Assembly: GCA_036770745.1 (NCBI GenBank)
Contig: DAIPIQ010000059.1
Coordinates: 1-20,519, forward strand
Origin: Opitutaceae bacterium
Lineage (GTDB): Bacteria; Verrucomicrobiota; Verrucomicrobiia; Opitutales; Opitutaceae
Direction of reading: 5' to 3'
Length of the DNA: 20,519 nt
The notes under the pieces are model-generated. The model was not told the origin of the DNA. It ran no database searches and saw only the letters and a program-made list of their open reading frames with translations. The translations under genes and the position numbers were made by a program. Below are positions 2,143 to 16,179 of the stretch, one piece after another (position 1 is the first letter of the stretch; every line of letters starts with the position of its first letter).

Positions 2143-2258
2143 GCGGGGAAGACGACAAAGGCGGTCGAAGTTGTCCAACCCCGTTGCGGGGTGTTGGTGG
2201 GGTTCGCCCGAATCGCGGGTGTTGTTGCCGTCGTCCGCCGGCGGCACAGGTTGGGGGG

Positions 2259-3113: not shown

Positions 3114-3114
3114 T

Positions 3115-4437: not shown

Positions 4438-4494
4438 GGTGTGCGGGAGGGAGGGTTCGGTTCGCCGAGTGCGAGGCAAGTCACGATCCCGGCG

Positions 4495-4722
4495 GATCGT
4501 CGAGGGGGGCAAGAGTGGTGGCAGTCTTCGGTTCTGCTGAACACCGACAGCCGTCTCCGCGGCCGGTTCGGAGGCATCGACCACGGCCACCACGATGCCG
4601 TGCTCGTGGGTCAAGTGCTCGTGGGCCGGGGTTTACCCCCGGCTTCCGACCAACAGACGCCGCAGAAGTCGGGGATGAACCCCGACCCACGACAGGCGGT
4701 TGCCGTCACTTTTGATCAAACC
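4495..4722 (+). repeat. Copy B (partly decayed) of the ~200-bp TIR-bounded palindromic element
   Basis: Left end ..CAAGAGTGGTGGCA (approx 4510-4523); right end TTGCCGTCACTTTTGATCAAACC (approx 4700-4722); these are diverged TIRs. The module at 4524-4617 has a ~20-nt insertion relative to A and C. The imperfect hairpin at 4618-4693 has arms CTCGTGGGCCGGGGTTTACCCCCGGCTT and AAGTCGGGGATGAACCCCGACCCACGAC, with several mismatches. The right end overlaps the last codons and stop of the methyltransferase gene. Confidence 0.8.
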
Positions 4723-5900
4723 CCATCGAGGGCGTGGCGCTCAACGCCGAAGAAATCCTTCAGCGCCCGGATCCGGGCGAGCGCCCGGTCGCGGTCGGCC
4801 GCGGCCGGCGCGGGGCGGAGCACGCCGGCGAGGAGGAGGTTGCGTGGCGTGTGGCCGGCGCCGACGAATTCGATGACGCGGGTCGCGTAACCCGCGGCCT
4901 CGAGGTGGAGCGCGCGCAGGCCGTCGGTCAGCCACTCGGCCATGCGCTCGGCGAGGATCCCGTGGGCGAGGAGCGGGGCGAGCGGCTCGGGCGCGCCCAT
5001 CCTCGGGCGCAGCTCCTGGTGGCAGCAGGGCGAGACGACGAGGATCCGCGCGCCGGCCATGATGCCACGGCGGATCGCGTCGTCGGTCGCGGTGTCGCAG
5101 GCGTGCAACGCGATCAGAAGGTCGAGACGCGGGGGCAGCTCGACCGCATCGATCCGCGCGGCGACGAAGCGGAGGCCGTCGCACCCGGTGGCTCGGGCGA
5201 CGGCGTTGGTCGTATCCACGAGCTCGGCACGCGCCTCGACGCCCGTCACCTCCGCCGGCAGGCCGAGGGTGTGGCGGAGCAGGTGCCAGACCCCGAAGGT
5301 GAGGAGGCCCTTGCCGCAACCCATGTCGACGACCTTCACGTCGCCCCCGGGAGGCAACGCGGCGTCCTTCACGAGGTGGGCGAGGATCTCGAGGAACCGC
5401 TCGAGCTGCCGGTGTTTGTCGGCCATCCGGGCGCGGACCTTTCCATCGGGCGCGCAGAGGCCGAGCGCGATCAGCCAGGGCTGCGCGCGGGCGTCGAGGA
5501 GCGGGTTTCCCGCCGCGTCGTGGTCGCGCGGCGGTGTGGCGGCATGGGTGGCGCGGTGGGCGACGAGCTGGAGTCCACCGCGCGGCGAGGGGCTGAGCTG
5601 CCAGTTGCGGTCGGTCGTCTCGACCACCGCGCTGCGGAAGGCGGCGGGGACCCGCCCCGCCAGCCACGTCGGGACCTCGGCGAGCGGGAGGTTGCGCGTG
5701 GTGTCGCGCTTCGGTTCACGCAGCGTGAGCGAGAGCACGGGTTCGCCACGGAGCACGACCATCCGGCCGATGATGCGCTCCGTCGCCGTGTCGGCGACCG
5801 GCTTCGTGAGCAGGAGGCGGACAAAGGAGCCGCTCGCGAGACTCGCGGAGACGTGACCGATGAACGCGTCGACCTGCGGGAGCGGGATCGCGGTTGTCAC
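4716..5900 (-). CDS. class I SAM-dependent methyltransferase (Methyltransf_32 / METTL25-like) with ~180-aa N-terminal domain of unknown function
   Basis: Motif I VVDMGCGKGLLT, followed by LHACDTATDDAIRRG and SPCCHQE. GTG start at 5900 overlaps the stop of the upstream lactonase gene (GTGA). Confidence 0.75.
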   Translation of the reverse strand: MTTAIPLPQVDAFIGHVSASLASGSFVRLLLTKPVADTATERIIGRMVVLRGEPVLSLTLREPKRDTTRNLPLAEVPTWLAGRVPAAFRSAVVETTDRNWQLSPSPRGGLQLVAHRATHAATPPRDHDAAGNPLLDARAQPWLIALGLCAPDGKVRARMADKHRQLERFLEILAHLVKDAALPPGGDVKVVDMGCGKGLLTFGVWHLLRHTLGLPAEVTGVEARAELVDTTNAVARATGCDGLRFVAARIDAVELPPRLDLLIALHACDTATDDAIRRGIMAGARILVVSPCCHQELRPRMGAPEPLAPLLAHGILAERMAEWLTDGLRALHLEAAGYATRVIEFVGAGHTPRNLLLAGVLRPAPAAADRDRALARIRALKDFFGVERHALDGV

Positions 5901-6727
5901 GTCAGACGGTAGGTTGCGGTCGCGGTTCCGCCGAGGATCGCGGCGCGCTCGTCCGCCGAGAGCGGGGCGAGGGCGCCTTCGACGAACCGGAACCAGCGTG
6001 CGTAGTCAGAGGCGACGAGACAGACCGGCCAGTCCGAACCGAACATCAGTCGCGACGGGCCGAACGCCTCCAGCACGACCTCGAAGTAGGGCGCGAGCAG
6101 TCCCGGCGTCCACGCGCGGCCGACGACCTCGGTGACGAGTCCGGAGAGCTTGCAGGCGACGTTCTCGCGCCGCGCGAGGTCGGTGATGGCGGCGCGCCAT
6201 TCGGGAGGCGGAGGACCGTCGATCCGCGGCTTCGCGATGTGGTCGAGGACGAACGACAGTCGCGGGTGCCGGTCGACGAGATCGATCGCGGCGGGCAATT
6301 GCGCCGCGCGGATGAGGAGGTCGTAGACGAGGTCGCGGTCGCCGACGGCGCGCAGTCCCGCGTTGAAGTCGGCGCGCGCGAGGAAGCCCGGATCGGGCTC
6401 GCCCTGAACGACGTGGCGCAAGCCCCTCAAGGCGCGCGCCGTCGCGAGCTCGTCGAGGATTCCCGCGATGCCCGGATCGGCGAGCGGAGCCCAGCCGACC
6501 ACGCCGCGGACGAACGGATCCGCCGCCGCTTGCGCGAGGAGCCAGCGGGTCTCTTCAAGCGACTGCCTGGCCTGGACCGCGATCGTCCCGGCGACCCCGC
6601 GGGGTTCCGCGACCTCGCGCAGATCCGCAGGGAAGAAATCGCGCCGGATGACCGCCATCGAGTCGTCGATCCAGGAGTATTCAGCGGGCGCGTAGCGCCA
6701 GAAATGGTTGTGGGCGTCGATCGTCAC
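5897..6727 (-). CDS. amidohydrolase-2 family lactonase (LigI / L-fucono-1,5-lactonase-like)
   Basis: N-terminal IDAHNHFW (HxH metal ligands), internal LDHIAKP, and C-terminal FGSDWP motif characteristic of the LigI/FucL lactonase clade. Only the last 276 codons of the 1118-aa track ORF are credible. The GTG start at 6727 overlaps the stop of the upstream gene (GTGA). Confidence 0.8.
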   Translation of the reverse strand: MTIDAHNHFWRYAPAEYSWIDDSMAVIRRDFFPADLREVAEPRGVAGTIAVQARQSLEETRWLLAQAAADPFVRGVVGWAPLADPGIAGILDELATARALRGLRHVVQGEPDPGFLARADFNAGLRAVGDRDLVYDLLIRAAQLPAAIDLVDRHPRLSFVLDHIAKPRIDGPPPPEWRAAITDLARRENVACKLSGLVTEVVGRAWTPGLLAPYFEVVLEAFGPSRLMFGSDWPVCLVASDYARWFRFVEGALAPLSADERAAILGGTATATYRLT

Positions 6728-7686
6728 GGCGTGGCCGGGGCTGGTTCGTCGAGCCCGAGAAGGCGGGCCGGATTCCGTTTCACCATCTCGTCGATCTCGT
6801 GGCGGGAAACACCCAGCGCCAGGAGACTCTCGAGGAAGATCGCGAGGCCCTCGGGCGGGCTGGGGTTGTCGGGCTGGCCGAAGTCGGAGGCGAGGACGAT
6901 GTGCCCGGCGCCGACGGTGCGGATCACCTCCACAAGATCCGCGAGCGGGACGGGCGCGCGAGAGAAGTTCGGAGGAACACCGCCCCGGGGGCGGGCGGAC
7001 GGCGCGTGGGTGAGCCAGACGCATTCGAGGAAAGCGCCGAGGTCCGCGAGCGTGCGCAGGTCTCCCGGCGTGGAGGCGATCGTCGGCGAGAGCGCGTGGG
7101 TGACGAGCATCCGACGGACGCCCGCGGCCCGCGCGGCGCGGAGCACGACGATCGACTCCTCGGCCGAGGAGTGGCCCGTGGCGAGCACGAGGTCGTGCTC
7201 CGCGATCAAGCGGAAGATCTCCGCGAGCGCCGGCGCGGGACGCCCCGCCTCGACCACCGGCACGTGCGGGCGGTCGACACCGGCGCGGACCACCTCGTTG
7301 GCGGCGTCGCGGGTGGGCAACCAGACGATGCGACCGCGCCCGCCCTCCATCGCCACCATCTGGCGGACGGCCTCGGCGTTGAGCCCGCCGACGGCGAGGT
7401 TGAGCACGATTCCGCCGAACACCTCGATCCCTCCGACCTCTCGCATCGCGAGGCGCGCCCGGTCGGCGGTCATCGTCACGTGGTTCTTCAACACGATCGC
7501 CCTCAGGCCGCGTTCGCGGGCCTCCCGGGCGAGCGCGAGATCGTCGAGGCGACGGGGGACGACGTCGGGTCCCGCGTGGCAGTGCAGGTCGATCGCGCCC
7601 GCGAGGTTCGGGAGCTCGATCGCGCCCGTGCACGGCGACGCCAGGAGGGCGAAGAAGAACGAAGGGTAAGGGAGCCACGTTCGCAT
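6724..7686 (-). CDS. exported amidohydrolase-superfamily metal-dependent hydrolase (IDLHCH motif)
   Basis: ATG start. Predicted Sec signal peptide MRTWLPYPSFFFALLASPCTGA, then AIDLHCHAGPD (HxH metal motif) and LASDFG near the C-terminus. First gene of a three-gene translationally coupled operon. Confidence 0.65.
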   Translation of the reverse strand: MRTWLPYPSFFFALLASPCTGAIELPNLAGAIDLHCHAGPDVVPRRLDDLALAREARERGLRAIVLKNHVTMTADRARLAMREVGGIEVFGGIVLNLAVGGLNAEAVRQMVAMEGGRGRIVWLPTRDAANEVVRAGVDRPHVPVVEAGRPAPALAEIFRLIAEHDLVLATGHSSAEESIVVLRAARAAGVRRMLVTHALSPTIASTPGDLRTLADLGAFLECVWLTHAPSARPRGGVPPNFSRAPVPLADLVEVIRTVGAGHIVLASDFGQPDNPSPPEGLAIFLESLLALGVSRHEIDEMVKRNPARLLGLDEPAPATP

Positions 7687-7819
7687 CGGGCGCGAGCAAA
7701 GGGACGAGGTGAGAGGGGCTCAACTCCGGGCTTGGGCGGGGCGGCGAAAACTCAACAGATTGCGCGGAGACCCCCTCGCGACCGACCTGCGGCATTCGAC
7801 ACCCTTCAGCCCACTTCGC

Positions 7820-8872
7820 ATGAACAAGACCCACTCCATCGCCCTCTACCCCGGAGACGGCATCGGCGTCGACGTGACCGAAGCCGCGGTCGAGGTGTTG
7901 ACGGCGCTCGTGGACCGGCACGGGGGCTTCGGCCTGAGGTTCACCCGCTTCGAGTGGGGCGTGGAACACCACGCGCGCCACGGGGTGGTCGCCCCGGATG
8001 GATTTCTCGAGACCTTGAAGGGGTTCGACGCGATCTTTCTCGGCGCCGTCGGCTGGCCGGCCCGGCTTCCCGACAACGTCACGCTGAAGCCGTTGATCCG
8101 GATCCGCCAGGGTTTCGACCTCTACGCGTGCGTCCGGCCGGCGCGGACCTTTCCGGGGGTGCGCAGCCTCCTCGCCGGCGCACCGGCGATCGACATGGTC
8201 GTCGTCCGCGAGAACTCCGAGGGCGAGTACGTGGACGTGGGCGGGCGCTTTCACGAAGGCGCGCCCGAGGAGTTCGCCGTGCAGAGCGCGCTCCACACGC
8301 GGCGGGGAATCGAGCGGGTGTTGCGCTTCAGCTTCGAGCTCGCACGCACGCGCCGCCGGCGCCTCACCGTCGCGACCAAGTCCAACGCCCAGCGGCACGC
8401 CTACGTCCTCTGGGAGGAGGTGGCGGCGGAGCTTTCCGGAGAGTATCGCGACGTCGAGCTGGACCATCAGCACATCGATGCGCTCACCATGAACTTCGTG
8501 CGTCGCCCGGAGTCCTTCGACGTCGTGGCGGCCTCGAACCTCTTCGGCGACATCCTGACCGATCTCTCCGGCGCGATCACCGGCGGAATCGGGCTGAACC
8601 CGTCGGCCAACCTGGATCCGACCCGACGCAGTCCCTCGCTCTTCGAGCCGGTGCACGGCTCGGCCCCCGACATCGCGGGGAAGGGAGTCGCCAACCCGAC
8701 GGGTGCGATCCTCGCCGCCGCGATGATGCTCGAGTGGCTGGGCGAGGCCGTGGGCGCGGGTCGTATCCGGGAATCGGTGACGGCGACGCTCGCGGCGGGC
8801 CGGACGACCCCGGACCTCGGGGGGAGTCTCTCGACCGCGGCGTTCACCCGTGCGGTCGTGGCCGCCCTCTGA
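7820..8872 (+). CDS. tartrate dehydrogenase/decarboxylase / D-malate dehydrogenase (isocitrate-isopropylmalate dehydrogenase family)
   Basis: Strong similarity to E. coli DmlA/TtuC-type enzymes along the whole length: IALYPGDGIG, FDAIFLGAVGWP, VVRENSEGEY, ATKSNA, ASNLFGDILTDL, SLFEPVHGSAPDIAGKGVANP. Start at the ATG of MNKTHSIAL (350 aa). Confidence 0.85.
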   Translation: MNKTHSIALYPGDGIGVDVTEAAVEVLTALVDRHGGFGLRFTRFEWGVEHHARHGVVAPDGFLETLKGFDAIFLGAVGWPARLPDNVTLKPLIRIRQGFDLYACVRPARTFPGVRSLLAGAPAIDMVVVRENSEGEYVDVGGRFHEGAPEEFAVQSALHTRRGIERVLRFSFELARTRRRRLTVATKSNAQRHAYVLWEEVAAELSGEYRDVELDHQHIDALTMNFVRRPESFDVVAASNLFGDILTDLSGAITGGIGLNPSANLDPTRRSPSLFEPVHGSAPDIAGKGVANPTGAILAAAMMLEWLGEAVGAGRIRESVTATLAAGRTTPDLGGSLSTAAFTRAVVAAL

Positions 8873-8960
8873 CGGCGGGCGTTTCAACAATGTGATGCCG
8901 CGGGTCGCTTGCCTCTGCGCGGCGGCGGGGTATCCCGGAGGCGAAGCCCCACGAAAGATC

Positions 8961-10193
8961 ATGCCGCACTCCCCCGATCCGCTCTCCCGTCGTCGTTTCT
9001 TGAAACAAGCCGCCGTCCTCGGAGGCGCGGCCGCCGCTCCCGCGGTCTTCGGCGCGCCGGGCGCCGCGGCGGCCGGCGGCGTCTCGTCGCTCTCCGAAGT
9101 CAAGGTGACGGGCGTCAAATGCCACATCGTGCACGAGCTCGCGCTCGTCGAGTTGAGCACCGACGCGGGCGTCACCGGCTGGGGCGAATGCGCTTGGGAC
9201 GGCGGTCCGCTCATGAAGCGTTTCGTCGAGGACCTGCTCGCGCCGGAATGCATCGGCGAGAGCGTCCACGACGTGCGCCGGCTCTGGGACTGGATGTACT
9301 ACGAGAACCACGACCTCGGCCCGGGCGGGGCGCTGCCCAACGCGATCGCCGGGGTGGACATCGCCTTGTGGGACGCGCGGGGGCGGCTGCTCGGGCTGCC
9401 GGTGCACCAGCTCCTCGGCGGCGCCTACCGCGACAAGATCGAGGCCTACGGGAGCGTGCCCGTGCGACGGGGCCGGGTGAGCGTGGAGGATTGCGTGAAG
9501 CGCTGCGTCGCCTTCGTCGAGCAGGGCTACAAGTGCGTGAAGGTGCGGATGCAGATCCGCGAGCACCACCTCAACCCCGATCCCGATCCGACCTTCGCCT
9601 ACGTCGCCGCGGTGCGGAAGGCGGTCGGCGACGGGATCGAGCTGATGGTCGACGCCAACAACGGCTACTCCGCCCAGCGCGCGATCCAGACGGCGATCCG
9701 CCTCCACGAGGAGTGGGGCGTGAACTATTTCGAGGACCCGGTCTCCGACCAGAACAACCTGGAGATGGCGCAGGTCACCGCCGCGCTCGACCGGGTGGAG
9801 ATCGTTGCCGGGGAGAAGTGCTACACGCGTTGGCAGATCAAGGAGCTCATCACGGTGGGCGACGTCGACATCCTGAACCCCGACGTCATCAAGGCCGGCG
9901 GTTTCACCGAGATGGACCGTATCCATCACCTGGCGACGTGTTACCAGAAGCCGATCCAGCTCCACAACACGCGCCCGACCGTCTCGACGGCCGCCTCGCT
10001 TCAGTTGATGGCGACGACCAACCAGGTCGCGCGCTACATGGAGTTCCCGATCATGAACGAGACCCTGGAGGCGCAGGCGCGGCTCTTCGACAAGGACGTG
10101 CGGCCGCGGGACGGCTGGCTGCACCTGCCGACGGGGCCCGGCATCGGGATCGAGCCCGATCGCGCGGCGTTGCGCGCGGCTACGGGCGCATAG
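8961..10193 (+). CDS. mandelate racemase / muconate lactonizing enzyme (enolase superfamily) protein with twin-arginine (Tat) signal peptide; probable acid-sugar dehydratase/cycloisomerase
   Basis: Canonical Tat motif SRRRFLKQAAVLGGAAAA, followed by an Ala-rich h-region. Enolase-superfamily hallmarks: capping-domain start VKVTGVKCHIV..GVTGWGE, the KxK motif (YKCVKVRM), and metal ligands in VDANNGY, FEDP and ILNPDVIKAGG. No alternative in-frame start exists between the Tat motif and the first beta-strand. Confidence 0.8.
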   Translation: MPHSPDPLSRRRFLKQAAVLGGAAAAPAVFGAPGAAAAGGVSSLSEVKVTGVKCHIVHELALVELSTDAGVTGWGECAWDGGPLMKRFVEDLLAPECIGESVHDVRRLWDWMYYENHDLGPGGALPNAIAGVDIALWDARGRLLGLPVHQLLGGAYRDKIEAYGSVPVRRGRVSVEDCVKRCVAFVEQGYKCVKVRMQIREHHLNPDPDPTFAYVAAVRKAVGDGIELMVDANNGYSAQRAIQTAIRLHEEWGVNYFEDPVSDQNNLEMAQVTAALDRVEIVAGEKCYTRWQIKELITVGDVDILNPDVIKAGGFTEMDRIHHLATCYQKPIQLHNTRPTVSTAASLQLMATTNQVARYMEFPIMNETLEAQARLFDKDVRPRDGWLHLPTGPGIGIEPDRAALRAATGA

Positions 10194-10259
10194 CCGTGGC
10201 GGTGGCGAGGAGGGTGGACGCCGGCCTCTGAACGGCGTTGCTTCGCGTGCCCTCCGCCC

Positions 10260-10340
10260 CACGCCTCTCGGCGAGAGGCGTGCCACCTCGGAAAATCGAA
10301 AAGCGCCAGCCAGGTAGCGCGCCTTTCGCCGAAAGGCGCG
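10260..10340. terminator. Two tandem GC-rich hairpins between convergent genes (candidate bidirectional terminators)
   Basis: Hairpin 1: CACGCCTCTC-GGC-GAGAGGCGTG (approx 10260-10282), a 10-bp perfect stem. Hairpin 2: CGCGCCTTT-CGCCG-AAAGGCGCG (approx 10318-10340), a 9-bp stem. Between them lies the A-rich run GGAAAATCGAAAAG. Coordinates are approximate, plus or minus 2. Confidence 0.35.
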
Positions 10341-10408
10341 AGAGCACGACGTGGTCCTGGGGCCCGCGTCCACCTTTCAGGATTGAACGTCCGTCGCGGG
10401 CCGTCCGT

Positions 10409-11464
10409 TCAGGCCGGGACGGCGGCGGCGGGAGCGCGGGCCGGACGGAGCGTCGAGCCCTCGTTCCACGTGCCCTCGAGGAGGAGCTGCTGCGGCAGGG
10501 CGGGCACGCCGCGGTCGTCGCGGTGGAGCATGTCGACAAGCAGGTCCACCGCCATCTGACCGACCTGTGAGGGATGTTTCAGCATTCCGGAGGCCTCGGG
10601 CAGATCGGATCCGTGGCGGACGAGCGAGTGCAGGGCCACGCCGATCCCCCCGGGCACCTCGTGGCCGGCTTCGCGGAGGGCCGTGACCACTTCCGGGAGT
10701 TTCGAGATGATCACGTCGGGACGGCGCCGCTCCACCCAATCGAGGAAGGCCCGGCGATCCCAGGCGTCGACGAGAAGCGGAGGCAGCCGATCGGCGCGCC
10801 GGAGCGTCTGCTGGTGGACGAGGAAGGCCGCGGACCAGTTGCAATCGACGCGGTCGTCGTGCTCGCGAAACCCGACCAGCGCCGGGCGGGTGTAGCCCCG
10901 GGCGTGCGTCTCCGCGAGCAGTTGGGTCATCATCCGGTAGGCGTGGTGGTAGACGTTGTGGAGCCGGGGCGCGATGCGGGTGCGGCCGATCGTCACGGCG
11001 GAGAATTCGCTCCAGCGCAGGTCGATCTCGCGCGGGTGGTGTTGGGGGGCGAGGAGCACGCCGCGGATGCCGCGGGCCACGAGGATGTCGCTGAGGCGGG
11101 CGCCACCCATGCCCGGTTCGCCGGCCCAGAAGTGGTCGAGCCGGTAGCCGCGCTCCTGGGCGCGGGATTCGGCCCCGTTGAAATAGAGGCACTGGCAGGA
11201 GTTTTCCCGCCAAAGGTCCCGGGTGGGATGGTTCGTGATCCAGGCGAGCACCGCGCGTTCGCAGACGGGCCGGCGGCCGACGCGGTAGGCGTTGAGCGCG
11301 GCGAGCATCGGGTCGGGGCGGTAGCCGAGGGCGTCGGCCGCGGCCTGGATGCGGTGACGGGTGGCCGGGGAGATGCTCGGGTGGTTTCGCAGCGCGAGCG
11401 AGACGGTGGAATAGTGACAGCCGGCGTGGCGCGCGATGTCGCGGGTCGTGGGGCGGGGAGTCAT
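10409..11464 (-). CDS. LacI family transcriptional regulator
   Basis: N-terminal HTH TTRDIARHAGCHYSTVSLALRN (LacI-type), then a periplasmic-binding-protein-like sugar-binding domain. Start at the ATG of MTPRPTTRDIA (351 aa); upstream track residues are low-complexity. Confidence 0.85.
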   Translation of the reverse strand: MTPRPTTRDIARHAGCHYSTVSLALRNHPSISPATRHRIQAAADALGYRPDPMLAALNAYRVGRRPVCERAVLAWITNHPTRDLWRENSCQCLYFNGAESRAQERGYRLDHFWAGEPGMGGARLSDILVARGIRGVLLAPQHHPREIDLRWSEFSAVTIGRTRIAPRLHNVYHHAYRMMTQLLAETHARGYTRPALVGFREHDDRVDCNWSAAFLVHQQTLRRADRLPPLLVDAWDRRAFLDWVERRRPDVIISKLPEVVTALREAGHEVPGGIGVALHSLVRHGSDLPEASGMLKHPSQVGQMAVDLLVDMLHRDDRGVPALPQQLLLEGTWNEGSTLRPARAPAAAVPA

Positions 11465-11489
11465 TTCTGCAGGCACTGTAGGCCGAGGC

Positions 11490-11506
11490 GGAGTTGGTTC
11501 AACTCC
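11490..11506. promoter_or_regulatory. Candidate operator: 7-bp inverted repeat GGAGTTG-gtt-CAACTCC ~25 nt upstream of the LacI start codon
   Basis: Perfect inverted repeat seen directly in the sequence. Its position fits autoregulation of a LacI-family regulator. No second copy was found upstream of the TBDR. Confidence 0.25.
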
Positions 11507-11534
11507 GGTCGGCGGAGGGGCGGAGCGGAGGCCA

Positions 11535-11712
11535 GTGCAATCAAGAGTGGTGGCATGCCTCGGTTCTACGGAGGACCGACGGGCTTCTTCGCGGCCGATT
11601 CGGACGCATCGACCACGGTGACCTTGCATGCCTTGGTCGTGGGCCGGGGTTGATCCCCGGCTTCCGAATGAGAGCGCCGAAAAAGCCGGGGATCAACCCC
11701 GGCCCACGACTG
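11535..11712 (+). repeat. Copy C of the ~200-bp palindromic element (right TIR truncated at the 3' end of the ArgH-family gene)
   Basis: Left TIR-like end GTGCAATCAAGAGTGGTGGCA (11535-11555). Module at 11556-11635, near-identical to the reverse complement of copy A. Perfect 28-bp stem GTCGTGGGCCGGGGTTGATCCCCGGCTT (11636-11663) pairs with AAGCCGGGGATCAACCCCGGCCCACGAC (11683-11710). Loop CCGAATGAGAGCGCCGAAA is similar to the copy A loop. Confidence 0.85.
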
Positions 11713-11732
11713 CAGCTGCTTGGCGGAGCCGG

Positions 11733-13220
11733 TCAGCGGGCCCGGTCGGCGAGGGCGTCGAAACGGCGGCCGAGGGCCTCGGAGGCTCGGCCCAGGCGCT
11801 CGCGTTCACCGGCGGTCCAGTCGCGGTTCGCGGCGGTGTCCCGCTCTTGGTCCTTCAACATCCGCGCGGTCTCGGCGGGTTGGGGACCGCCCACGCCCTT
11901 GCGGGCGCGGACGATCTCGAGGGGATCGAAGGCGCGGCGCAGTTGCGCCTCGGAAAGCGGTAGTTCGGCGTCGGCCACACGGCGGTAGATCGCGGCGACT
12001 TCCTCGCGGGTGAGGTCGACCGGGCGTTTGCCGAGAGAGCGACCGTGGGTCGTCAGTTCGGAGGCGACACGATAGCCGATGCGGAAGGGGACGTCGGCTT
12101 CGCGGAGAAGCGTGTCGGCGAGCTCGGTCATCGTCGAGTAGTCGGCGTCGACGTGGCCGCGCAGGCGGACCGGATCGATCACGAGGCCGTCGAGGATCCG
12201 GCCGAGCTGGGCGTACATCGAACCGGCGGTCTCGGAAAACACGAGCAGGCGCGCGAGGTGGTCCTCGCGGACGTCCTTCACCTCGTAGAGCGGCGTATTG
12301 TGGGCGAAGAAGGCGGAGGCGTGGCCGTTGGCGACCACCTCGCTGGCGGAGAGGCGGAGGCGCTCGATCGCGCTGGGGTTGCGCTTCTGCGGCATGATGC
12401 TGCTGCGGCTGGTGACGTTGTCGCCGAGGTAGATGCCGGGGGCGGGGTCGTCGTATTGGACGATCAGCGACTGGGCGAAGCGCCCGATCCCGAGGGCGGA
12501 GAGGCCGAGGGCGGCGGCGTATTCGACCTTGCTGTCGGCGGTGGAGACCATGATCGCGTCGTAGGCGTTCTCGACCAGGCCATCGAAGCCCAGCAGCTCG
12601 GCAAGCAGGGGGCGGTCGAGCGGGAATCCGGAGGTGGTGAAGGCCCCGGCGCCGAGCGGGCTGAGGTTGATCCGGGCGTGGATCTCGCGGAGGCGTCGCT
12701 GGTCGCGGGCGAGACCGGCGTCGAAGGCGAGGAGGAAATGGGCCACGGTCGTCGGCTGGGCCTGCACGGCGTGGGTGAAGCCCGGCATCACGCTCTCGAG
12801 GTGTGCGCCGGCCATGGCTTGGAGGCGGGTGCGGACGGCTCCGATGTCGTCGACGCGGGCGAGGAGGTGCTCGCGCAGGATCATCCGGTTCATCGCGGCG
12901 TTGAGGTCGTTGCGGCTGCGCCCGATGTGGAGGTTGGAGGCCTCGGGCCCGATCCGCGCCTGGAGGCGCCGTTCGAGGTCGAGGTAGTTCGTGGAGCGGT
13001 CCTCCTCGCGGGCCGCCATCTCCGACGCGGTGGCGCGCAAGGCCGCGGCGATCCGGGCGGCTTCGTCGGCTGGGAGGATCGCGCGCTCGGCGAGCATCAC
13101 GATCTGGGCGCGGTTCGTCTCGATGAGGTGGTCGTGCAGGTCGCGCTCGGCGGCGGTCGTACCGAAGGGGGCGAGGACGGCGAGGGCGAGGAGGGTGGGG
13201 CGAAGATCGGATGGGCTCAT
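11733..13220 (-). CDS. argH: argininosuccinate lyase family protein (fumarate lyase superfamily), atypical N- and C-termini
   Basis: ArgH-like throughout the core: VMPGFTH..QAQPTT, SPLGAGA, TSRSSIMPQKRNP (family signature, ArgH-type Q), MTELADTLL, VPFR. It lacks the conserved N-terminal WGGRF segment. In its place is MSPSDLRPTLLALAVLAPFGTTAAE, which looks like a signal peptide, and there is a ~50-aa C-terminal extension. The start is taken at ATG 13220, not the upstream TTG of the track. Confidence 0.75.
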   Translation of the reverse strand: MSPSDLRPTLLALAVLAPFGTTAAERDLHDHLIETNRAQIVMLAERAILPADEAARIAAALRATASEMAAREEDRSTNYLDLERRLQARIGPEASNLHIGRSRNDLNAAMNRMILREHLLARVDDIGAVRTRLQAMAGAHLESVMPGFTHAVQAQPTTVAHFLLAFDAGLARDQRRLREIHARINLSPLGAGAFTTSGFPLDRPLLAELLGFDGLVENAYDAIMVSTADSKVEYAAALGLSALGIGRFAQSLIVQYDDPAPGIYLGDNVTSRSSIMPQKRNPSAIERLRLSASEVVANGHASAFFAHNTPLYEVKDVREDHLARLLVFSETAGSMYAQLGRILDGLVIDPVRLRGHVDADYSTMTELADTLLREADVPFRIGYRVASELTTHGRSLGKRPVDLTREEVAAIYRRVADAELPLSEAQLRRAFDPLEIVRARKGVGGPQPAETARMLKDQERDTAANRDWTAGERERLGRASEALGRRFDALADRAR

Positions 13221-13238
13221 GGAGGGAGGGAAAAACAA

Positions 13239-13264
13239 CGCGCGGGATCATGGGATCCCGCGCG
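13239..13264 (-). terminator. Intrinsic-terminator-like hairpin plus T-tract between TBDR stop and ArgH-family start
   Basis: GCGCGGGATC-ATGG-GATCCCGCGC is a perfect 10-11-bp stem. On the minus strand it is followed by GCGTTGTTTTTCCC, which is T-rich. It sits 18 nt upstream of the ArgH-family ATG. Confidence 0.45.
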
Positions 13265-13299
13265 TGGAGAAGACAAGGGGACGTGGTCGCCGCGAGGGA

Positions 13300-16179
13300 T
13301 CAGAACTCGAACTTCACGCCGCCGACGGCGCTCCAGCCCGCGAACTCCTGTTCGACCACCTGATCGGGCGTGCCGATGTAGATGCGCTTCTTGTCGCTGT
13401 TGGCGAGATTCTTGGCGTCGACGTAGAGCTTGATGCCCCGGCGGAGCTGGTAGTTGAGCGAGAGATCCCACGAGTCGACGCTGTCGAACCAGGTGTCGCC
13501 CGCCGCGGTGGAGCCGAAGCTGTCGATGTAGCGACCGTTGTCGAAGTAGGCGACGCGGGCCTCGAAGGCCCCGATCTCGTAGACGAGCTGGATGTTGTAG
13601 ACGCTGTCGACTTGGTCGGTCATGTTGTCGACCGTGCCGCGGCCGTCGATCTCGGCGGAGGCGTTGACGAGGGTGAGGTTGGCCTGGATGCCGAGACCGT
13701 CGAAGGGCTTCGGGAGCATGTTGAGCGTCTGCGTCCACGAGAGCTCGACTCCGGTGAGGCGGGCGCGCGGACCGTTCTCCGGGCGGGTGCGGAAGAAGCC
13801 GTCGAACTCGCCACCCTCGACGAATTCGCCGCGGAAGAGGGTGAAGTTCTTGATCTTCTTGTGGAAGATCGAAGCGGAGAGGATGCCCGCGGTGGGCAGG
13901 TATTTTTCAATCGAAAAATCGACGTTGACCGACCGGAAGGGCTTCAGGCCGGGGTTTCCGTCGGAGATCGTGTCGGTGTCGTCCGTGTCGTTGATGGTGC
14001 GGATGGGAGCGAGAAGGTTGTAGTCGGGCCGGGCGATCGTGGTGGTGACGGCGCCACGGAGGAGCAGGTCGTCGCGGATGCGGTAGGTCGTCACGATACT
14101 CGGGAAGAGATTGTCGTAGCTGTTCTTCTCGCTGATCGGAGTGAATCCGACGAAGGCGCCGTTGCGCGTGTCGCGCTGGTTGGCGTCGTATCCCACCTCG
14201 GTGCGCTCCCAGCGCAGACCGGTGACGACGCGCAGCTTGTCGAGGTTGATCGTGGCCATGGCGTAGGCTCCGTAGATGTCCTCGGTCGCCTGGTAGGAAG
14301 CACCGAAGTCGTTGCGGTCGTTGTTCACGTTCCGCACGAATCGATTCGAGTTGGCCGGATCGCGGAAGAAGTCGCGGGCGGCGCGGACGTTCGTGCTCGG
14401 GCCGACATTGTAGCTGCCGCCGAAGATTTCCAAGGGGTCGGTGTCCGGGAAGCTCGCCACGGTGAGCTCGGGCGCACCGACGATGGCGAACCGGGGATTC
14501 TCAGGACGGTTGTCCTTTTCCTTGCTCCGGTAGCGCAGACCCATCTGCCACTCGACCGGGCGGTCTCCCAAGCGACCAGGGATCTTGATGTTGACGCCTC
14601 CCGTGAGGTCCTCCTCCGAGGTGTCGTCGTCGCGGAAGTTGAAGGCACCGCGGTTGTTGAAGCTGAAGCGCCCGAGATTGTTGAAGTGGTTGAAGGGGTC
14701 GCCGATGATCGGGCGGTTCACGTTGGTGCGATCGAAGGTCAGGTCAGGGATGCCGTCCTGATCCAAGCGCATGCCGTTGACGTTCCAAAGAGTGTCGCTG
14801 AGGCGGTATTCGGAGGAATACACATGCCGGCGGACCTTGAAACCGGTCCACGTGTAGGCGAGCGAGTAGTCCACGGTGTAGCCCGGGAGCTCCCATTTGC
14901 CGCCGGTGGAGGCGTTGTAGATGTCGGTGGTCTTGGTTCCGATCCGGTCTTCGCGGCGAAGCCGTCCGCCGTCGACGATGGCCACCGTGGCGGTCGAACC
15001 GGGAAGGACGCGGCTGTTGTCGCCGAAGCCGACGCGGAGGCGGCGGCGCTCCTCGGCGTCCTCGAAGGAGTTGACGAAACCGCGGACGTAAAAGGTCGCA
15101 TTGTCCCCGGTGCGGAAGTCGAGCTGACCCGAGATCGCGTCGCGCGAGCGGGTGAGGTAGCGGTGGCGGTATTGAAGCTCGGTCATGAAGCCGGGGATGA
15201 CGACGCCCGCGGTGGTCGTGCGCGTACCGTAGCTGTTGGTGAAGGAATCGAGGCCGCGTTCGCTCTCGTAGGTCGAGATGCCAATGAGGAATCCGAGTTT
15301 CCCGTCCCGGATGACGTCGCCGTAGCTGAGGCTCCCGGAATATTGGGCGGAGTCGCGGATGTCGTTGTAGCCGGCCTCGAGTTTTCCGTTGAGGACGCGG
15401 CGGTTGTATTCAAGCGAGGTCTTGGTGATGAGGTTGACGTTGGCCCCGACCGAGTCGGCGTCCATGTTCGGCGTGATCGCCTTCACCACTTCGATGCTGG
15501 AGATCATGTCGGTCGGCACGGAGTGGAGGGAGACGGCGCGGTTGTCCCGTGATTCGGTGGGGTCGCCGACGGAGGGGAGGCGCTCGCCGTTGAGCGAGAC
15601 GGCGCTGAACTTCGGCGAGGTGCCGCGGACGGAGATGAACTCCGGTTCGCCGAGGTCGTTCTGGACGGAGATGCCGGGGAGGCGGCGGAGGGCCTCGGCG
15701 ACGTTGGCGTCAGGGAGGCGGCCGAGGGCGTCGGCGGCGACGATGTTGCTGATCGTGTTGGAGGTGCGCTGCCGGTTGATCGCCCGCGCCTGGCCCTCGA
15801 CGAACGACTCGACGGAGAACTCATCGAGCTCGATGATGTCGGATCCGAGGGAGACATTCTGGATGGTCGAGGCCCCGGTCGTCGTCACGCTGCCCGAGAA
15901 GGGCGAGCGGCCGAGGTAGGAGACTTCGAGAGTGTGTGTGCCCGAGGGGACGCCGGCGATGCGGAAGCGGCCGGTGCGGTCGGTGGCGCCGGAAAGGCCC
16001 AGGCCGGGGAGTCGGACTTCGGCCCCCACGACGAGCGCGCCGGTTTCGTCGGTCACGATGCCGGAGACGACGCTGGTCGACTGGCCGAAGGCCGGGAGAC
16101 CGAGGCACATGAGAAAGAAAACCAAGGCCGCCTTCAGCGGATTGGAAACGCAGTAGTGATCACGTCGAAACGAGGTCAT
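13300..16179 (-). CDS. TonB-dependent receptor with N-terminal carboxypeptidase-regulatory-like (CarbopepD_reg) domain
   Basis: 959 aa. Signal peptide MTSFRRDHYCVSNPLKAALVFFLMCLGLPAFGQ. CarbopepD-like segment VSGIVTDETGALVVGAEVRLPGLGLSGATDRTGRFRIAGVPSGTHTLEVSYLG. Plug-like region with DEFSV..ALRRLPGISVQ. Beta-barrel with the C-terminal GGVKFEF ending in Phe. Confidence 0.9.
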   Translation of the reverse strand: MTSFRRDHYCVSNPLKAALVFFLMCLGLPAFGQSTSVVSGIVTDETGALVVGAEVRLPGLGLSGATDRTGRFRIAGVPSGTHTLEVSYLGRSPFSGSVTTTGASTIQNVSLGSDIIELDEFSVESFVEGQARAINRQRTSNTISNIVAADALGRLPDANVAEALRRLPGISVQNDLGEPEFISVRGTSPKFSAVSLNGERLPSVGDPTESRDNRAVSLHSVPTDMISSIEVVKAITPNMDADSVGANVNLITKTSLEYNRRVLNGKLEAGYNDIRDSAQYSGSLSYGDVIRDGKLGFLIGISTYESERGLDSFTNSYGTRTTTAGVVIPGFMTELQYRHRYLTRSRDAISGQLDFRTGDNATFYVRGFVNSFEDAEERRRLRVGFGDNSRVLPGSTATVAIVDGGRLRREDRIGTKTTDIYNASTGGKWELPGYTVDYSLAYTWTGFKVRRHVYSSEYRLSDTLWNVNGMRLDQDGIPDLTFDRTNVNRPIIGDPFNHFNNLGRFSFNNRGAFNFRDDDTSEEDLTGGVNIKIPGRLGDRPVEWQMGLRYRSKEKDNRPENPRFAIVGAPELTVASFPDTDPLEIFGGSYNVGPSTNVRAARDFFRDPANSNRFVRNVNNDRNDFGASYQATEDIYGAYAMATINLDKLRVVTGLRWERTEVGYDANQRDTRNGAFVGFTPISEKNSYDNLFPSIVTTYRIRDDLLLRGAVTTTIARPDYNLLAPIRTINDTDDTDTISDGNPGLKPFRSVNVDFSIEKYLPTAGILSASIFHKKIKNFTLFRGEFVEGGEFDGFFRTRPENGPRARLTGVELSWTQTLNMLPKPFDGLGIQANLTLVNASAEIDGRGTVDNMTDQVDSVYNIQLVYEIGAFEARVAYFDNGRYIDSFGSTAAGDTWFDSVDSWDLSLNYQLRRGIKLYVDAKNLANSDKKRIYIGTPDQVVEQEFAGWSAVGGVKFEF

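What the first reader, a model, noticed from the sequence alone, without database searches (positions are those of the whole stretch)
8961..10193. Enolase-superfamily (MR/MLE) enzyme carrying a canonical Tat signal peptide
SRRRFLKQAAVLGGAAAAPAVFGAPGAAAAG precedes an otherwise typical cytoplasmic-type MR/MLE fold (KxK, DANNGY, FEDP, NPD ligands). No alternative start codon exists between the Tat motif and the first beta-strand, so the signal is not an annotation artefact. Tat export of a Mg-dependent acid-sugar dehydratase or cycloisomerase to the periplasm is unusual. It implies periplasmic processing of a sugar-acid or lactone substrate, a compartment not normally associated with this superfamily.
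Basis: partly seen in the sequence, partly recalled or inferred. Interest (0 to 1): 0.55.

Follow-up and report, generated by a model that had tools for sequence, protein, structure and literature searches.

The report
Tat-exported periplasmic enolase-superfamily enzyme
This gene encodes a normal-looking mandelate racemase/muconate-lactonizing (enolase-superfamily) enzyme with a textbook twin-arginine export signal that is conserved across a whole multi-phylum clade and usually lies next to an outer-membrane TonB-dependent importer, so it is probably a periplasmic acid-sugar-converting enzyme, a location I found described in no paper.

Summary
ORF 8961-10193 (+) encodes 410 aa. Residues 1-38 are a signal peptide with a perfect S-R-R-x-F-L-K motif, followed by a complete MR/MLE fold (AF2 pLDDT 92; closest PDB entries about 30% identical).

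It is not a start-codon artefact. 87 of 114 full-length homologues (45-81% identity; Opitutaceae, Acidobacteriota, Gemmatimonadota, Proteobacteria, Bacteroidota) carry the same signal, and the first Arg is invariant. In a tree of 50%-identity representatives the query sits in a pure 12/12 Tat-bearing clade.

Ten of 17 related loci, plus the window, have a TonB-dependent receptor nearby, against 1 of 75 loci of signal-less paralogues.

A second, distant MR_MLE_C family also carries Tat signals (110/118) and often lies in the same loci. The window's argininosuccinate-lyase-like neighbour has a Sec-type signal, as do 99 of 120 of its homologues.

The β2 motif is K194-x-R196, not KxK. The third metal ligand is E285; D308 in "NPD" pairs with H335.

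Dedicated Tat HMMs score just below threshold. The substrate is unknown.

Best reading: a Tat-exported periplasmic MR-subgroup dehydratase, cycloisomerase or epimerase acting on a receptor-imported acid sugar. New variant of a known kind; moderate interest.

The parts
8961..10193 (+). Full ORF of the Tat-signal MR/MLE (enolase-superfamily) protein, 410 aa
   Evidence: ORF and sequence. Pfam MR_MLE_N plus MR_MLE_C. The identical protein is called on NCBI contig CAZGAL010000111.1.
8961..9074 (+). Predicted Tat signal peptide, residues 1-38: n-region, twin-arginine motif, Ala/Gly-rich h-region, and an AAA|G cleavage site. The cleavage position is inferred, not tested.
   Evidence: Sequence. Custom rule test is positive. 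AF2 gives low pLDDT for residues 1-43 with a lone helix at 8-22. The signal is conserved across homologues.
8985..9005 (+). Twin-arginine motif S9-R10-R11-R12-F13-L14-K15
   Evidence: Family logo from 88 homologues: S(50) R(88) R(87) x F(69) L(79) K/R(51). R10 is invariant and R11 at least 90% conserved.
9075..10190 (+). Mature MR/MLE catalytic domain (capping domain plus modified TIM barrel)
   Evidence: AF2 pLDDT above 90 from about residue 44. Foldseek TM 0.8-0.9 to 3sjn, 4ggb/4hpn, 3n4e/4dwd and 5olc. phmmer against PDB, E about 1e-44.
9540..9548 (+). β2 motif K194-V-R196, aligned with K164-x-K166 of mandelate racemase. The second Lys is replaced by an invariant Arg.
   Evidence: K194 and R196 are invariant. 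Strand 192-196 in the model. 3n4e shows the same VKIR in the HMMER alignment.
9651..9815 (+). Three metal-ligand codons: D231 (9651-9653), E258 (9732-9734), E285 (9813-9815), at the ends of β3, β4 and β5
   Evidence: Invariant in A1 and at least 90% conserved in 149 representatives. Strand ends taken from the model. Codons read.
9882..9965 (+). Asp-His dyad: D308 (9882-9884, β6) and H335 (9963-9965, β7), the MR-subgroup general base
   Evidence: Both invariant in the family. The spacing 285-308-335 matches 247-270-297 of mandelate racemase. The mandelate racemase numbers are from my own knowledge.
7820..8872 (+). Upstream co-directional gene: tartrate-dehydrogenase-like Iso_dh with no signal peptide, 88 nt before the enolase gene. 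Probably the same operon.
   Evidence: Pfam Iso_dh. TIGR02089 452 bits against a cut-off of 470. Homologues lie near the Tat-enolase in L008 and L011.
10409..11464 (-). LacI-family regulator
   Evidence: Pfam LacI. 48-56% identical LacI genes flank the Tat-enolase in L003, L011, L091, L092, L093 and L094.
11733..13220 (-). Argininosuccinate-lyase-like (fumarate-lyase superfamily) protein with a Sec-type signal peptide in place of the usual N-terminal segment
   Evidence: Lyase_1 plus ASL_C2. TIGR00838 265 bits against 279.5, matching from profile position 27. 99 of 120 homologues have a hydrophobic N-terminus.
13300..16179 (-). TonB-dependent receptor (CarboxypepD_reg plus Plug plus barrel; TonB-Xanth-Caul subfamily), upstream of the lyase on the same strand
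   Evidence: Pfam. TIGR01782 517 bits. 30-53% identical receptors lie next to Tat-enolase homologues in 10 of 17 loci.
6724..7686 (-). DUF6282 amidohydrolase-like protein with a signal-like N-terminus (MRTWLPYPSFFFALLASPCTGA). Possibly another exported enzyme of the locus.
   Evidence: Pfam DUF6282 213 bits. N-terminus read. Conservation of the signal was not tested.
5897..6727 (-). Amidohydro_2 lactonase-like protein (L-fucono-1,5-lactonase-like) with no signal. It overlaps DUF6282 by 4 nt.
   Evidence: Pfam. NF052480 262 bits against a cut-off of 400.

Best explanation
The gene encodes a mandelate-racemase-subgroup member of the enolase superfamily. The protein is made with a cleavable twin-arginine signal peptide, folds in the cytoplasm (and may oligomerise there, with or without Mg2+), is exported folded by the Tat pathway, and works as a soluble periplasmic enzyme.

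It belongs to a multi-phylum clade in which the signal is ancestral and maintained. Its genes typically sit beside a TonB-dependent outer-membrane receptor, a LacI- or GntR-type regulator and an inner-membrane carboxylate or sugar carrier.

The inferred mechanism has three steps. The receptor imports a small carboxylated carbohydrate, such as an aldonate, aldarate, uronate or its lactone. In the periplasm the enzyme abstracts the proton alpha to the carboxylate with the H335-D308 dyad, while Mg2+ (bound by D231, E258 and E285) together with K194 and R196 stabilises the enediolate. This yields a dehydrated, cycloisomerised or epimerised product. That product is then taken up and finished by cytoplasmic enzymes; in this window those are a tartrate-dehydrogenase-like Iso_dh and an amidohydrolase-type lactonase.

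Shown here: the motif, the fold, conservation of the signal, and the genomic linkage. Inferred: actual export, signal cleavage, and the reaction and substrate.
For: The Tat consensus SRRRFLK is exact, with a long weakly hydrophobic h-region and an AAA|G site.

The signal is conserved. 87 of 114 full-length homologues carry it, and the family logo is S-R-R-x-F-L-K/R with R at 88/88 and 87/88. R10 is invariant across 56 sequences from several phyla. 75 of 88 have an AxA site.

The h-regions are much less hydrophobic (1.88 ± 0.28) than the Sec-type signals of the neighbouring lyase family (2.74 ± 0.40, Mann-Whitney p = 2e-28), as expected for Tat rather than Sec signals.

There is no usable start codon between codons 15 and 48.

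The mature domain is a complete, confidently folded MR/MLE enzyme (pLDDT 92; TM 0.8-0.9 to 3sjn, 4ggb, 3n4e and 5olc) with all metal and dyad residues invariant.

The query lies in a 12/12 Tat-bearing clade among 50%-identity representatives, while 130 of 149 nearest representatives have no extension.

A TonB-dependent receptor lies within the locus in 10 of 17 relatives and in the window, against 1 of 75 loci of signal-less paralogues. The receptor and the enolase gene are directly adjacent in L008, L094 and L097.

Neighbouring enzymes are also signal-bearing: a second Tat MR_MLE_C family (110/118), an HbpS-like protein, the Sec-signal lyase (99/120), and a SusC/SusD PUL in Persicitalea.

Inner-membrane carriers lie next to the gene: MFS_1, Na_sulph_symp and TRAP.
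Against: Pfam TAT_signal (17.0 against 22.7) and TIGR01409 (16.3 against 16.7) are both below their cut-offs, and only 16 of 56 family members hit TIGR01409 at E <= 0.05.

No SignalP or TatP run was possible. My Tat test is a home-made rule.

tatABC could not be checked, because the window is only 20 kb.

The query lacks a basic 'Sec-avoidance' residue in its c-region, although many homologues have one.

A subclade, mostly Acidobacteriota, keeps RRxF but has lost the h-region (P0073, P0083, P0092, P0105). The signal is therefore dispensable in some lineages.

The receptor-linkage control is confounded by taxonomy, since many control loci come from Actinomycetota or Chloroflexota, which lack such receptors.

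The substrate is unknown. All NCBIfam equivalogs score far below cut-off (best is DgoD, 191 against 311), and the catalytic Lys of the KxK motif is an Arg.
Confidence: 0.7

Rival explanations
1. Start-codon or annotation artefact. The real protein starts at the first β-strand (GTG 9105) and is an ordinary cytoplasmic MR/MLE enzyme. The upstream 'signal' is untranslated, GC-rich sequence that happens to read as Ala/Gly/Arg.
For: An in-frame GTG exists at codon 49. In a 69.5% GC window, spurious Ala/Arg/Gly-rich reading frames are common. GC3 in the signal region (0.81) is lower than in the mature part (0.94).
Against: The same S-R-R-x-F-L-K motif plus h-region is found at the protein level in 87 of 114 homologues. 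These include low-GC Bacteroidota (L096 at 40% GC, L013 at 54% GC), where composition cannot create it. R10 is invariant. Starting at codon 49 would remove the conserved V-K of the first strand (consensus VKI). Independent gene callers at NCBI and JGI chose the long form.
Confidence: 0.03
2. The N-terminal segment is a real Tat or Sec targeting sequence but is not cleaved. It acts as a signal anchor, so the enzyme is tethered to the periplasmic face of the inner membrane, or is lipid-anchored in some relatives.
For: The cleavage site is only inferred. Ala-rich sequence yields AxA by chance. Many members of the second Tat MR_MLE_C family in Bacteroidota have a Cys in a lipobox-like context after the h-region, for example LLLQGC and LGSC, so membrane attachment occurs among related exported enzymes.
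Against: The h-region is weakly hydrophobic (1.8) and rich in Gly and Pro, which makes it a poor transmembrane anchor. 75 of 88 homologues have AxA 12-40 residues after RR, often as ARA|Q or LRA|Q followed by a Pro/Ala/Thr linker. The query has no Cys.
Confidence: 0.12
3. The signal is vestigial or non-functional in this organism. The protein stays in the cytoplasm and works as a conventional acid-sugar dehydratase.
For: A subclade has visibly degraded signals, with RRxF retained and the h-region lost. The Tat HMM scores are sub-threshold. Cytoplasmic partners (Iso_dh, Amidohydro_2) lie in the same locus.
Against: The query keeps every element intact: a perfect motif, a 26-residue uncharged stretch and an AxA site. 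Its closest relatives at 62-81% identity do the same. Degraded forms look different. Linkage to receptors and to other signal-bearing enzymes argues for use in the periplasm.
Confidence: 0.1
4. The protein is exported, but through Sec rather than Tat. The RR motif would be incidental.
For: Some RR-containing signals are Sec substrates. The query has no basic residue in its c-region.
Against: The full seven-residue Tat consensus is conserved family-wide, with F at +2 in 69 of 88 and L at +3 in 79 of 88. The h-region hydrophobicity is far below that of the Sec-type signals in the same loci. MR/MLE enzymes are metal-dependent and usually oligomeric (established knowledge), which fits folded export.
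Confidence: 0.05

Closest known systems
Galactarolactone cycloisomerase Gci, Agrobacterium tumefaciens (PDB 4ggb/4hpn), enolase superfamily, MR subgroup
   Same: Same two-domain fold (Foldseek E 3.5e-32, TM 0.77/0.90, 28-31% identity) and the same kind of Mg2+ site. In A. tumefaciens, Gci works with an amidohydrolase-superfamily lactone isomerase (my own knowledge). The window likewise encodes Amidohydro_2 and DUF6282 amidohydrolase-like proteins.
   Different: Gci has no signal peptide and is cytoplasmic. Identity is only about 30%. No uronate dehydrogenase or KdgD gene is in the window. Function was not tested.
3,6-anhydro-D-galactonate cycloisomerase DauB, Zobellia galactanivorans (PDB 5olc), and galactonate dehydratase DgoD (NF010624)
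   Same: The best NCBIfam match is DgoD (191 bits). 5olc gives E 2.8e-43 by sequence and TM 0.77/0.89 by structure. All are acid-sugar-converting MR/MLE enzymes, and DauB is encoded in a polysaccharide-utilisation regulon.
   Different: The score is far below the DgoD equivalog cut-off of 311. Position D231+2 is Asn, where I recall DgoD having its general-acid His. Those enzymes are cytoplasmic.
Uncharacterised structural-genomics MR/MLE proteins 3sjn (Shewanella pealeana Spea_3858) and 3n4e/4dwd (Paracoccus denitrificans)
   Same: These are the closest solved structures (E about 1e-44, 29-32% identity, TM up to 0.92). 3n4e shares the unusual V-K-I-R (KxR) β2 motif.
   Different: No function is known for either. 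The aligned PDB chains begin near the first strand. Whether the native proteins have signals was not determined.
Tat-exported 'cytoplasmic-type' sugar enzymes, e.g. Zymomonas mobilis glucose-fructose oxidoreductase (my own knowledge)
   Same: An enzyme fold that is normally cytoplasmic is sent folded to the periplasm by an S/T-R-R-x-F-L-K signal, where it acts on sugars before uptake.
   Different: That enzyme has a different fold (Gfo/Idh/MocA) and a tightly bound NADP cofactor, which explains its use of Tat. For an MR/MLE enzyme the only cofactor is Mg2+, so the reason for Tat (folding or oligomerisation before export) is conjecture.

Membership tests
Enolase superfamily, MR/MLE families (Pfam PF02746 + PF13378) | N-terminal α+β capping domain plus C-terminal modified (β/α)7β barrel | tested here: met
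   MR_MLE_N 63.5 bits and MR_MLE_C 186 bits, both above cut-off. AF2 pLDDT 92. Foldseek TM 0.8-0.9 to many MR/MLE structures.
Enolase superfamily, MR/MLE families (Pfam PF02746 + PF13378) | Three carboxylate ligands for the essential divalent metal, at the ends of β3, β4 and β5 | tested here: met
   D231, E258 and E285 are invariant in 56 family members and at least 90% conserved in 149 representatives. They sit at or just after strands 227-231, 256-258 and 280-283 of the model.
Mandelate racemase (MR) subgroup | His-Asp dyad at the ends of β7 and β6 | tested here: met
   H335 and D308 are invariant. Spacing to the metal ligands is identical to mandelate racemase (E247-D270-H297; my own knowledge).
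Mandelate racemase (MR) subgroup | KxK motif at the end of β2 | tested here: not met
The sequence is K194-V-R196, and R196 is invariant in the family. Some MR-subgroup dehydratases also lack the second Lys (my own knowledge), so this does not exclude the subgroup. It does argue against a two-base, racemase-type mechanism.
Galactonate dehydratase DgoD and other named acid-sugar dehydratases (NCBIfam equivalogs) | Score above the curated equivalog cut-off | tested here: not met
   DgoD 191 against 311; AraD 158 against 650; ManD 134 against 550; TalrD/GalrD 134 against 500; RhamD 108 against 393. The same holds for all 56 family members.
Tat (twin-arginine) signal peptides | S/T-R-R-x-F-L-K motif at the boundary of the n- and h-regions | tested here: met
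   S9-R-R-R-F-L-K15. Family logo S R R x F L K/R.
Tat (twin-arginine) signal peptides | Moderately hydrophobic h-region followed by a c-region with an AxA signal-peptidase site | tested here: met
   A 26-residue uncharged stretch with best-window Kyte-Doolittle 1.8 and an A36-A37-A38|G39 site. The family mean is 1.88, against 2.74 for Sec-type signals of the neighbouring lyase family. Cleavage itself is untested.
Tat (twin-arginine) signal peptides | Recognition by curated Tat-signal profile models | tested here: inconclusive
   Pfam PF10518 gives 17.0 bits against a cut-off of 22.7. TIGR01409 gives 16.3 against 16.7 (E 0.009). 16 of 56 family members reach E <= 0.05. SignalP and TatP were not available.
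Tat (twin-arginine) signal peptides | Tat-dependent export, and tatA/tatC present in the genome | not testable with these tools
   The window is 20.5 kb and contains no tat genes. An experiment is needed.
TonB-dependent-receptor-linked carbohydrate utilisation loci (CUT loci / PULs) | Receptor gene clustered with a regulator, periplasmic enzymes and an inner-membrane transporter | tested here: met
   In the window, a TIGR01782 receptor, a signal-bearing lyase, LacI and the Tat-enolase lie within 7.2 kb. Ten of 17 related loci have a receptor. L013 has SusC/SusD plus sigma and anti-sigma factors. Carriers are seen. No inner-membrane carrier was identified in the window itself.

The most novel reading that the evidence does not exclude
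The enolase superfamily has a sizeable periplasmic branch that has not been described. It comprises at least two unrelated MR/MLE families plus several smaller lineages that acquired Tat signals independently. Together with TonB-dependent receptors, these form a minimal 'import, then convert in the periplasm' module in Verrucomicrobiota, Acidobacteriota, Bacteroidota and others. On this reading, the first committed C-H-abstraction step of some acid-sugar or lactone pathway takes place outside the cytoplasm. In this window it may act alongside an equally unexpected Sec-exported argininosuccinate-lyase-like enzyme.
Probability: 0.5. Interest if true: 0.65.

Novelty: new variant of a known kind. 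Interest (0 to 1): 0.5.

Why it matters
To my knowledge, every characterised MR/MLE enzyme is cytoplasmic, and six full-text searches found none described as exported. A conserved, Tat-targeted clade tied to outer-membrane importers would place enolase-type chemistry in the periplasm. That would give a concrete functional hypothesis for hundreds of proteins now annotated only as 'mandelate racemase/muconate lactonizing enzyme family protein' in abundant soil and aquatic phyla.

It would also add a new enzyme class to the repertoire of TonB-receptor and PUL-type nutrient-acquisition loci. And it would provide a natural case for asking why a cofactor-poor enzyme, needing only Mg2+, uses the folded-protein export route.

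If the protein proves to be cytoplasmic after all, the finding reduces to an ordinary uncharacterised dehydratase.

Tried and rejected
1. Curated Tat HMMs (Pfam and TIGRFAM) were run on the protein and on 56 relatives. Scores are just below threshold and sensitivity is low (16 of 56), so they neither confirm nor refute.

2. Six literature searches combined enolase superfamily, mandelate racemase or muconate lactonizing with twin-arginine, Tat signal, periplasm, signal peptide or TonB. No paper describes an exported MR/MLE enzyme, and the one candidate (PMC5507952) was irrelevant. Subscription journals are not covered, so absence is weak evidence.

It returned mostly distant signal-less paralogues, which were useful only as a control set.

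4. I searched for a shared LacI operator upstream of the Iso_dh-enolase and receptor-lyase units. Only one good palindrome turned up (GGAGTTGGTTCAACTCC, 11490-11506), with no second copy and no excess over shuffles. Co-regulation is therefore unproven.

5. The promoter and terminator scan around the gene was uninformative: 0 promoter-like sites and 1 terminator-like site on the opposite strand.

6. Substrate assignment from NCBIfam equivalogs or PDB neighbours was rejected, because everything is at or below about 32% identity and below cut-offs.

7. A Foldseek search against AFDB50, meant to find cultured carriers, failed because the library was not available.

8. I considered an L-Ala-D/L-Glu epimerase-type role on murein peptides in the periplasm, which is how JGI names these proteins. 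I rejected it because the family has the MR-type His-Asp dyad rather than the MLE-type Lys pair, and it scores only 60 bits against a cut-off of 500 on that model.
Full report
**What is at the coordinates**

The window has 69.5% GC and many spurious long ORFs. GC3 analysis picks out the real frames. The frame from ATG 8961 to TAG 10193 has GC3 of 0.91-0.94 and encodes 410 aa.

Pfam finds MR_MLE_N (residues 58-153) and MR_MLE_C (179-402), both well above threshold. The N-terminus is MPHSPDPLSRRRFLKQAAVLGGAAAAPAVFGAPGAAAAGG.... It contains an exact S-R-R-x-F-L-K twin-arginine consensus, a 26-residue uncharged Ala/Gly/Pro-rich stretch, and an A-A-A|G site.

Curated Tat-signal HMMs detect it but fall just short of their cut-offs: PF10518 scores 17.0 against 22.7, and TIGR01409 scores 16.3 against 16.7.

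In-frame start candidates are 8850, 8892, 8895, 8961, 9000 (codon 14) and 9105 (codon 49, already inside the first β-strand). There are none between codons 15 and 48.

**Is the signal real?**

The decisive test is conservation. A search of 5.8 billion proteins returned 355 relatives. Of the 114 full-length ones among the best 120, 87 pass a simple rule of my own: RR within 50 residues, hydrophobic residues at +2 and +3, and at least 12 uncharged residues.

Across 88 homologues (with the R-[R/K] variant of my rule) the motif logo is S(50) R(88) R(87) x F(69) L(79) K/R(51), which is the textbook Tat consensus. 75 of 88 have an AxA site 12-40 residues downstream, often ARA|Q or LRA|Q followed by a Pro/Ala/Thr linker.

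In a 56-sequence alignment spanning Opitutaceae, Thermoanaerobaculaceae, Bryobacterales, Gemmatimonadaceae and others, R10 is invariant and R11 is at least 90% conserved. Low-GC relatives (L096 at 40% GC, L013 at 54% GC) have the same motif, so base composition is not producing it.

The h-regions are much less hydrophobic (1.88 ± 0.28) than the Sec-type signals of the lyase family encoded next door (2.74 ± 0.40; p = 2e-28). That is the known difference between Tat and Sec signals. One caveat: the lyase set was pre-filtered at 2.0 or above.

AF2 with the family alignment gives pLDDT 92. Residues 1-43 have low confidence and contain a lone helix at 8-22. The globular domain begins at about residue 44.

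**How the Tat-bearing forms are distributed**

An exhaustive HMMER search of 1.84 billion 50%-identity representatives found 16,722 MR/MLE proteins. Among the 149 closest that I aligned, 18 have Tat-like N-termini, 130 have no extension, and one (P0277) has an extension without a twin-arginine motif.

A neighbour-joining tree built on the mature domain only places the query in a pure 12/12 Tat-bearing clade. Other Tat-bearing representatives are scattered among signal-less ones (P0251, P0273, P0280+P0288, P0317, P0348). The signal is therefore ancestral to this clade and has been acquired several times elsewhere in the superfamily. The tree is only a sketch.

Inside the clade, a mostly acidobacterial subgroup keeps RRxF but has lost the h-region (P0073, P0083, P0092, P0105). 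This looks like secondary decay, and it shows what a non-functional signal looks like. The query does not look like that.

**The enzyme**

The closest solved structures are 3sjn, 4ggb/4hpn (proposed galactarolactone cycloisomerase), 3n4e/4dwd and 5olc (3,6-anhydro-D-galactonate cycloisomerase). All are 28-32% identical, with E about 1e-44 by sequence and TM 0.8-0.9 by structure.

The best NCBIfam model is galactonate dehydratase, at 191 bits against a cut-off of 311. No equivalog is met by the query or by any of 56 relatives.

Invariant residues map onto the barrel strands of the model as follows:
- K194 and R196 on β2.
- D231 (with N233) on β3.
- E258 on β4.
- E285 (with K286) on β5.
- D308 (with K311) on β6.
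- H335 on β7.
- E361 on β8.

The spacing matches mandelate racemase K164/K166, D195, E221, E247, D270, H297 and E317; those numbers are from my own knowledge. The protein is therefore an MR-subgroup enzyme with an intact metal site and His-Asp base. The second Lys of KxK is an invariant Arg, a feature shared with 3n4e.

This corrects two points in the finding. There is no KxK. 'NPD' holds the dyad Asp, not a metal ligand; the third ligand is E285 in AGEK.

With Arg replacing the second Lys, a single-base dehydratase or cycloisomerase mechanism seems more likely than a two-base racemase. That is inference.

**Genomic context**

The window's gene order is:
- ApbA, FA_hydroxylase, FAD_oxidored and Methyltransf_32.
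- Amidohydro_2 (fuconolactonase-like, no signal).
- DUF6282 (signal-like N-terminus).
- Tartrate-dehydrogenase-like Iso_dh, followed after 88 nt by the Tat-enolase.
- On the other strand, a TonB-dependent receptor (TIGR01782, 517 bits), an argininosuccinate-lyase-like protein and LacI.

Related loci:
- L003, L091 and L093 carry LacI, a receptor, a second MR_MLE_C protein, an HbpS-like protein and the Tat-enolase. L091 also has a GH2 gene.
- L006 carries two receptors, an 853-aa unknown protein, the Tat-enolase and an MFS transporter.
- L008 carries GntR, a receptor, the Tat-enolase, an aminotransferase, a DASS carrier, TAL_FSA and Iso_dh.
- L105 carries a receptor, LacI, the Tat-enolase and a DASS carrier.
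- L094 carries a lyase, a receptor, the Tat-enolase and LacI.
- L013 (Persicitalea, Bacteroidota) is a sigma/anti-sigma plus SusC/SusD PUL with two Tat-signal MR/MLE genes.
- L010 carries UxaC, TRAP, Mannitol_dh, a cytoplasmic ManD-like enzyme, the Tat-enolase and PfkB, which is a hexuronate context.

A receptor is detectable in 10 of 17 Tat-clade loci, plus the window, against 1 of 75 loci of signal-less paralogues. Taxonomy confounds this control.

I found no shared LacI operator.

**Other exported 'cytoplasmic-type' enzymes**

The second MR_MLE_C protein is about 25% identical to the query. It also starts with a Tat signal in every locus examined, and 110 of 118 of its full-length homologues do so. 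Some Bacteroidota members add a lipobox-like Cys.

The window's lyase matches argH only from profile position 27; a Sec-type signal replaces the usual N-terminus. 99 of 120 of its homologues show the same arrangement.

The Tat-enolase is therefore one member of a set of exported enzymes encoded around TonB-dependent receptors.

**Interpretation**

Most likely (about 0.7), this is a Tat-exported, soluble periplasmic MR-subgroup enzyme that converts a receptor-imported carboxylated carbohydrate before uptake. The DASS, MFS or TRAP carriers, the tartrate-dehydrogenase-like Iso_dh, and the hexuronate genes in relatives point to an aldarate, aldonate, uronate or lactone substrate, but nothing identifies it.

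The rivals are a start-site artefact (0.03), an uncleaved anchor (0.12), a vestigial signal (0.1) and Sec export (0.05).

**Novelty**

Six full-text searches found no description of an exported MR/MLE enzyme. Databases simply call these 'mandelate racemase/muconate lactonizing enzyme family protein'.

The fold and chemistry are known, and so is Tat export of sugar enzymes in general. The combination, its breadth and its receptor linkage appear to be undescribed. I rate it a new variant of a known kind with interest about 0.5: real and testable, but not a new principle, and export remains unproven.

Noticed in passing
window 11733-13220 (-): This argininosuccinate-lyase-like protein (TIGR00838, 265 bits against a cut-off of 279.5) has a Sec-type signal peptide (MSPSDLRPTLLALAVLAPFGTTAA|E) where argH has its first ~26 profile positions. 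99 of 120 homologues (Acidobacteriota, Bryobacterales, Deltaproteobacteria, Lysobacterales and others) also have a hydrophobic N-terminus. It appears to be a widespread exported branch of the fumarate-lyase superfamily, with unknown function.
   Followed up: partly
L003 8125-9378; L091 4542-5798; L093 8081-9454; L013 13363-14613: A second, very divergent MR_MLE_C-only family (about 417 aa, about 25% identical to the query) lies 0.6-3 kb from the Tat-enolase and also carries a Tat signal. 110 of 118 full-length homologues do so, including Planctomycetes, KSB1, Vicinamibacteria and Bacteroides. Some Bacteroidota members have a lipobox-like Cys after the h-region.
   Followed up: partly
P0073, P0074, P0083, P0092, P0093, P0095, P0105 (homologues, mostly Acidobacteriota): This subclade of the Tat-enolase family retains the RRxF motif but has lost the hydrophobic region; only about 10-15 residues precede the first strand. 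The signal looks decayed, which suggests a reversion to the cytoplasm.
   Followed up: no
window 6724-7686 (-) and 5897-6727 (-): The DUF6282 amidohydrolase-like protein has a signal-like N-terminus (MRTWLPYPSFFFALLASPCTGA). It overlaps by 4 nt a signal-less fuconolactonase-like Amidohydro_2 gene, which in turn overlaps Methyltransf_32 by 4 nt. These are probably one operon mixing exported and cytoplasmic proteins.
   Followed up: no
L003 9431-9922; L091 7911-8417: A small HbpS-like/GlcG protein (163-168 aa) with a Sec-type signal sits between the two Tat-signal MR/MLE genes in Opitutaceae-type loci. Its role is unknown.
   Followed up: no
L096 (40% GC metagenome contig) 1997-14147: This Bacteroidota-like locus has at least four consecutive proteins that begin with RR motifs: a 357-aa unknown, the Tat-enolase, a 504-aa GHL10/GHL6-like protein and a 450-aa protein. 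It also has WD40 β-propellers with signals and a GH10 xylanase with a T9SS sorting domain. The same signal-bearing WD40 propeller occurs in L013.
   Followed up: partly
window 11490-11506: A perfect 17-bp palindrome, GGAGTTGGTTCAACTCC, lies just upstream of the LacI coding region. It occurs once in the window, and matches allowing up to three mismatches are no more frequent than in shuffles. It may be an autoregulatory operator.
   Followed up: partly
L006 5443-8004; L093 5263-7989; L013 14641-16965: Large proteins (774-908 aa) with no Pfam domain are encoded between the receptor and the Tat-enolase. In L006 the stop overlaps the enolase start. They may be unknown glycan-processing enzymes of the same loci.
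   Followed up: no
window 5897-9253 (-), 6799-8895 (+), 8844-10373 (-): Very long ORFs (509-1118 aa) overlap real genes on other frames and strands. They are artefacts of 69.5% GC, and GC3/GC2 profiles identify the true frames.
   Followed up: yes
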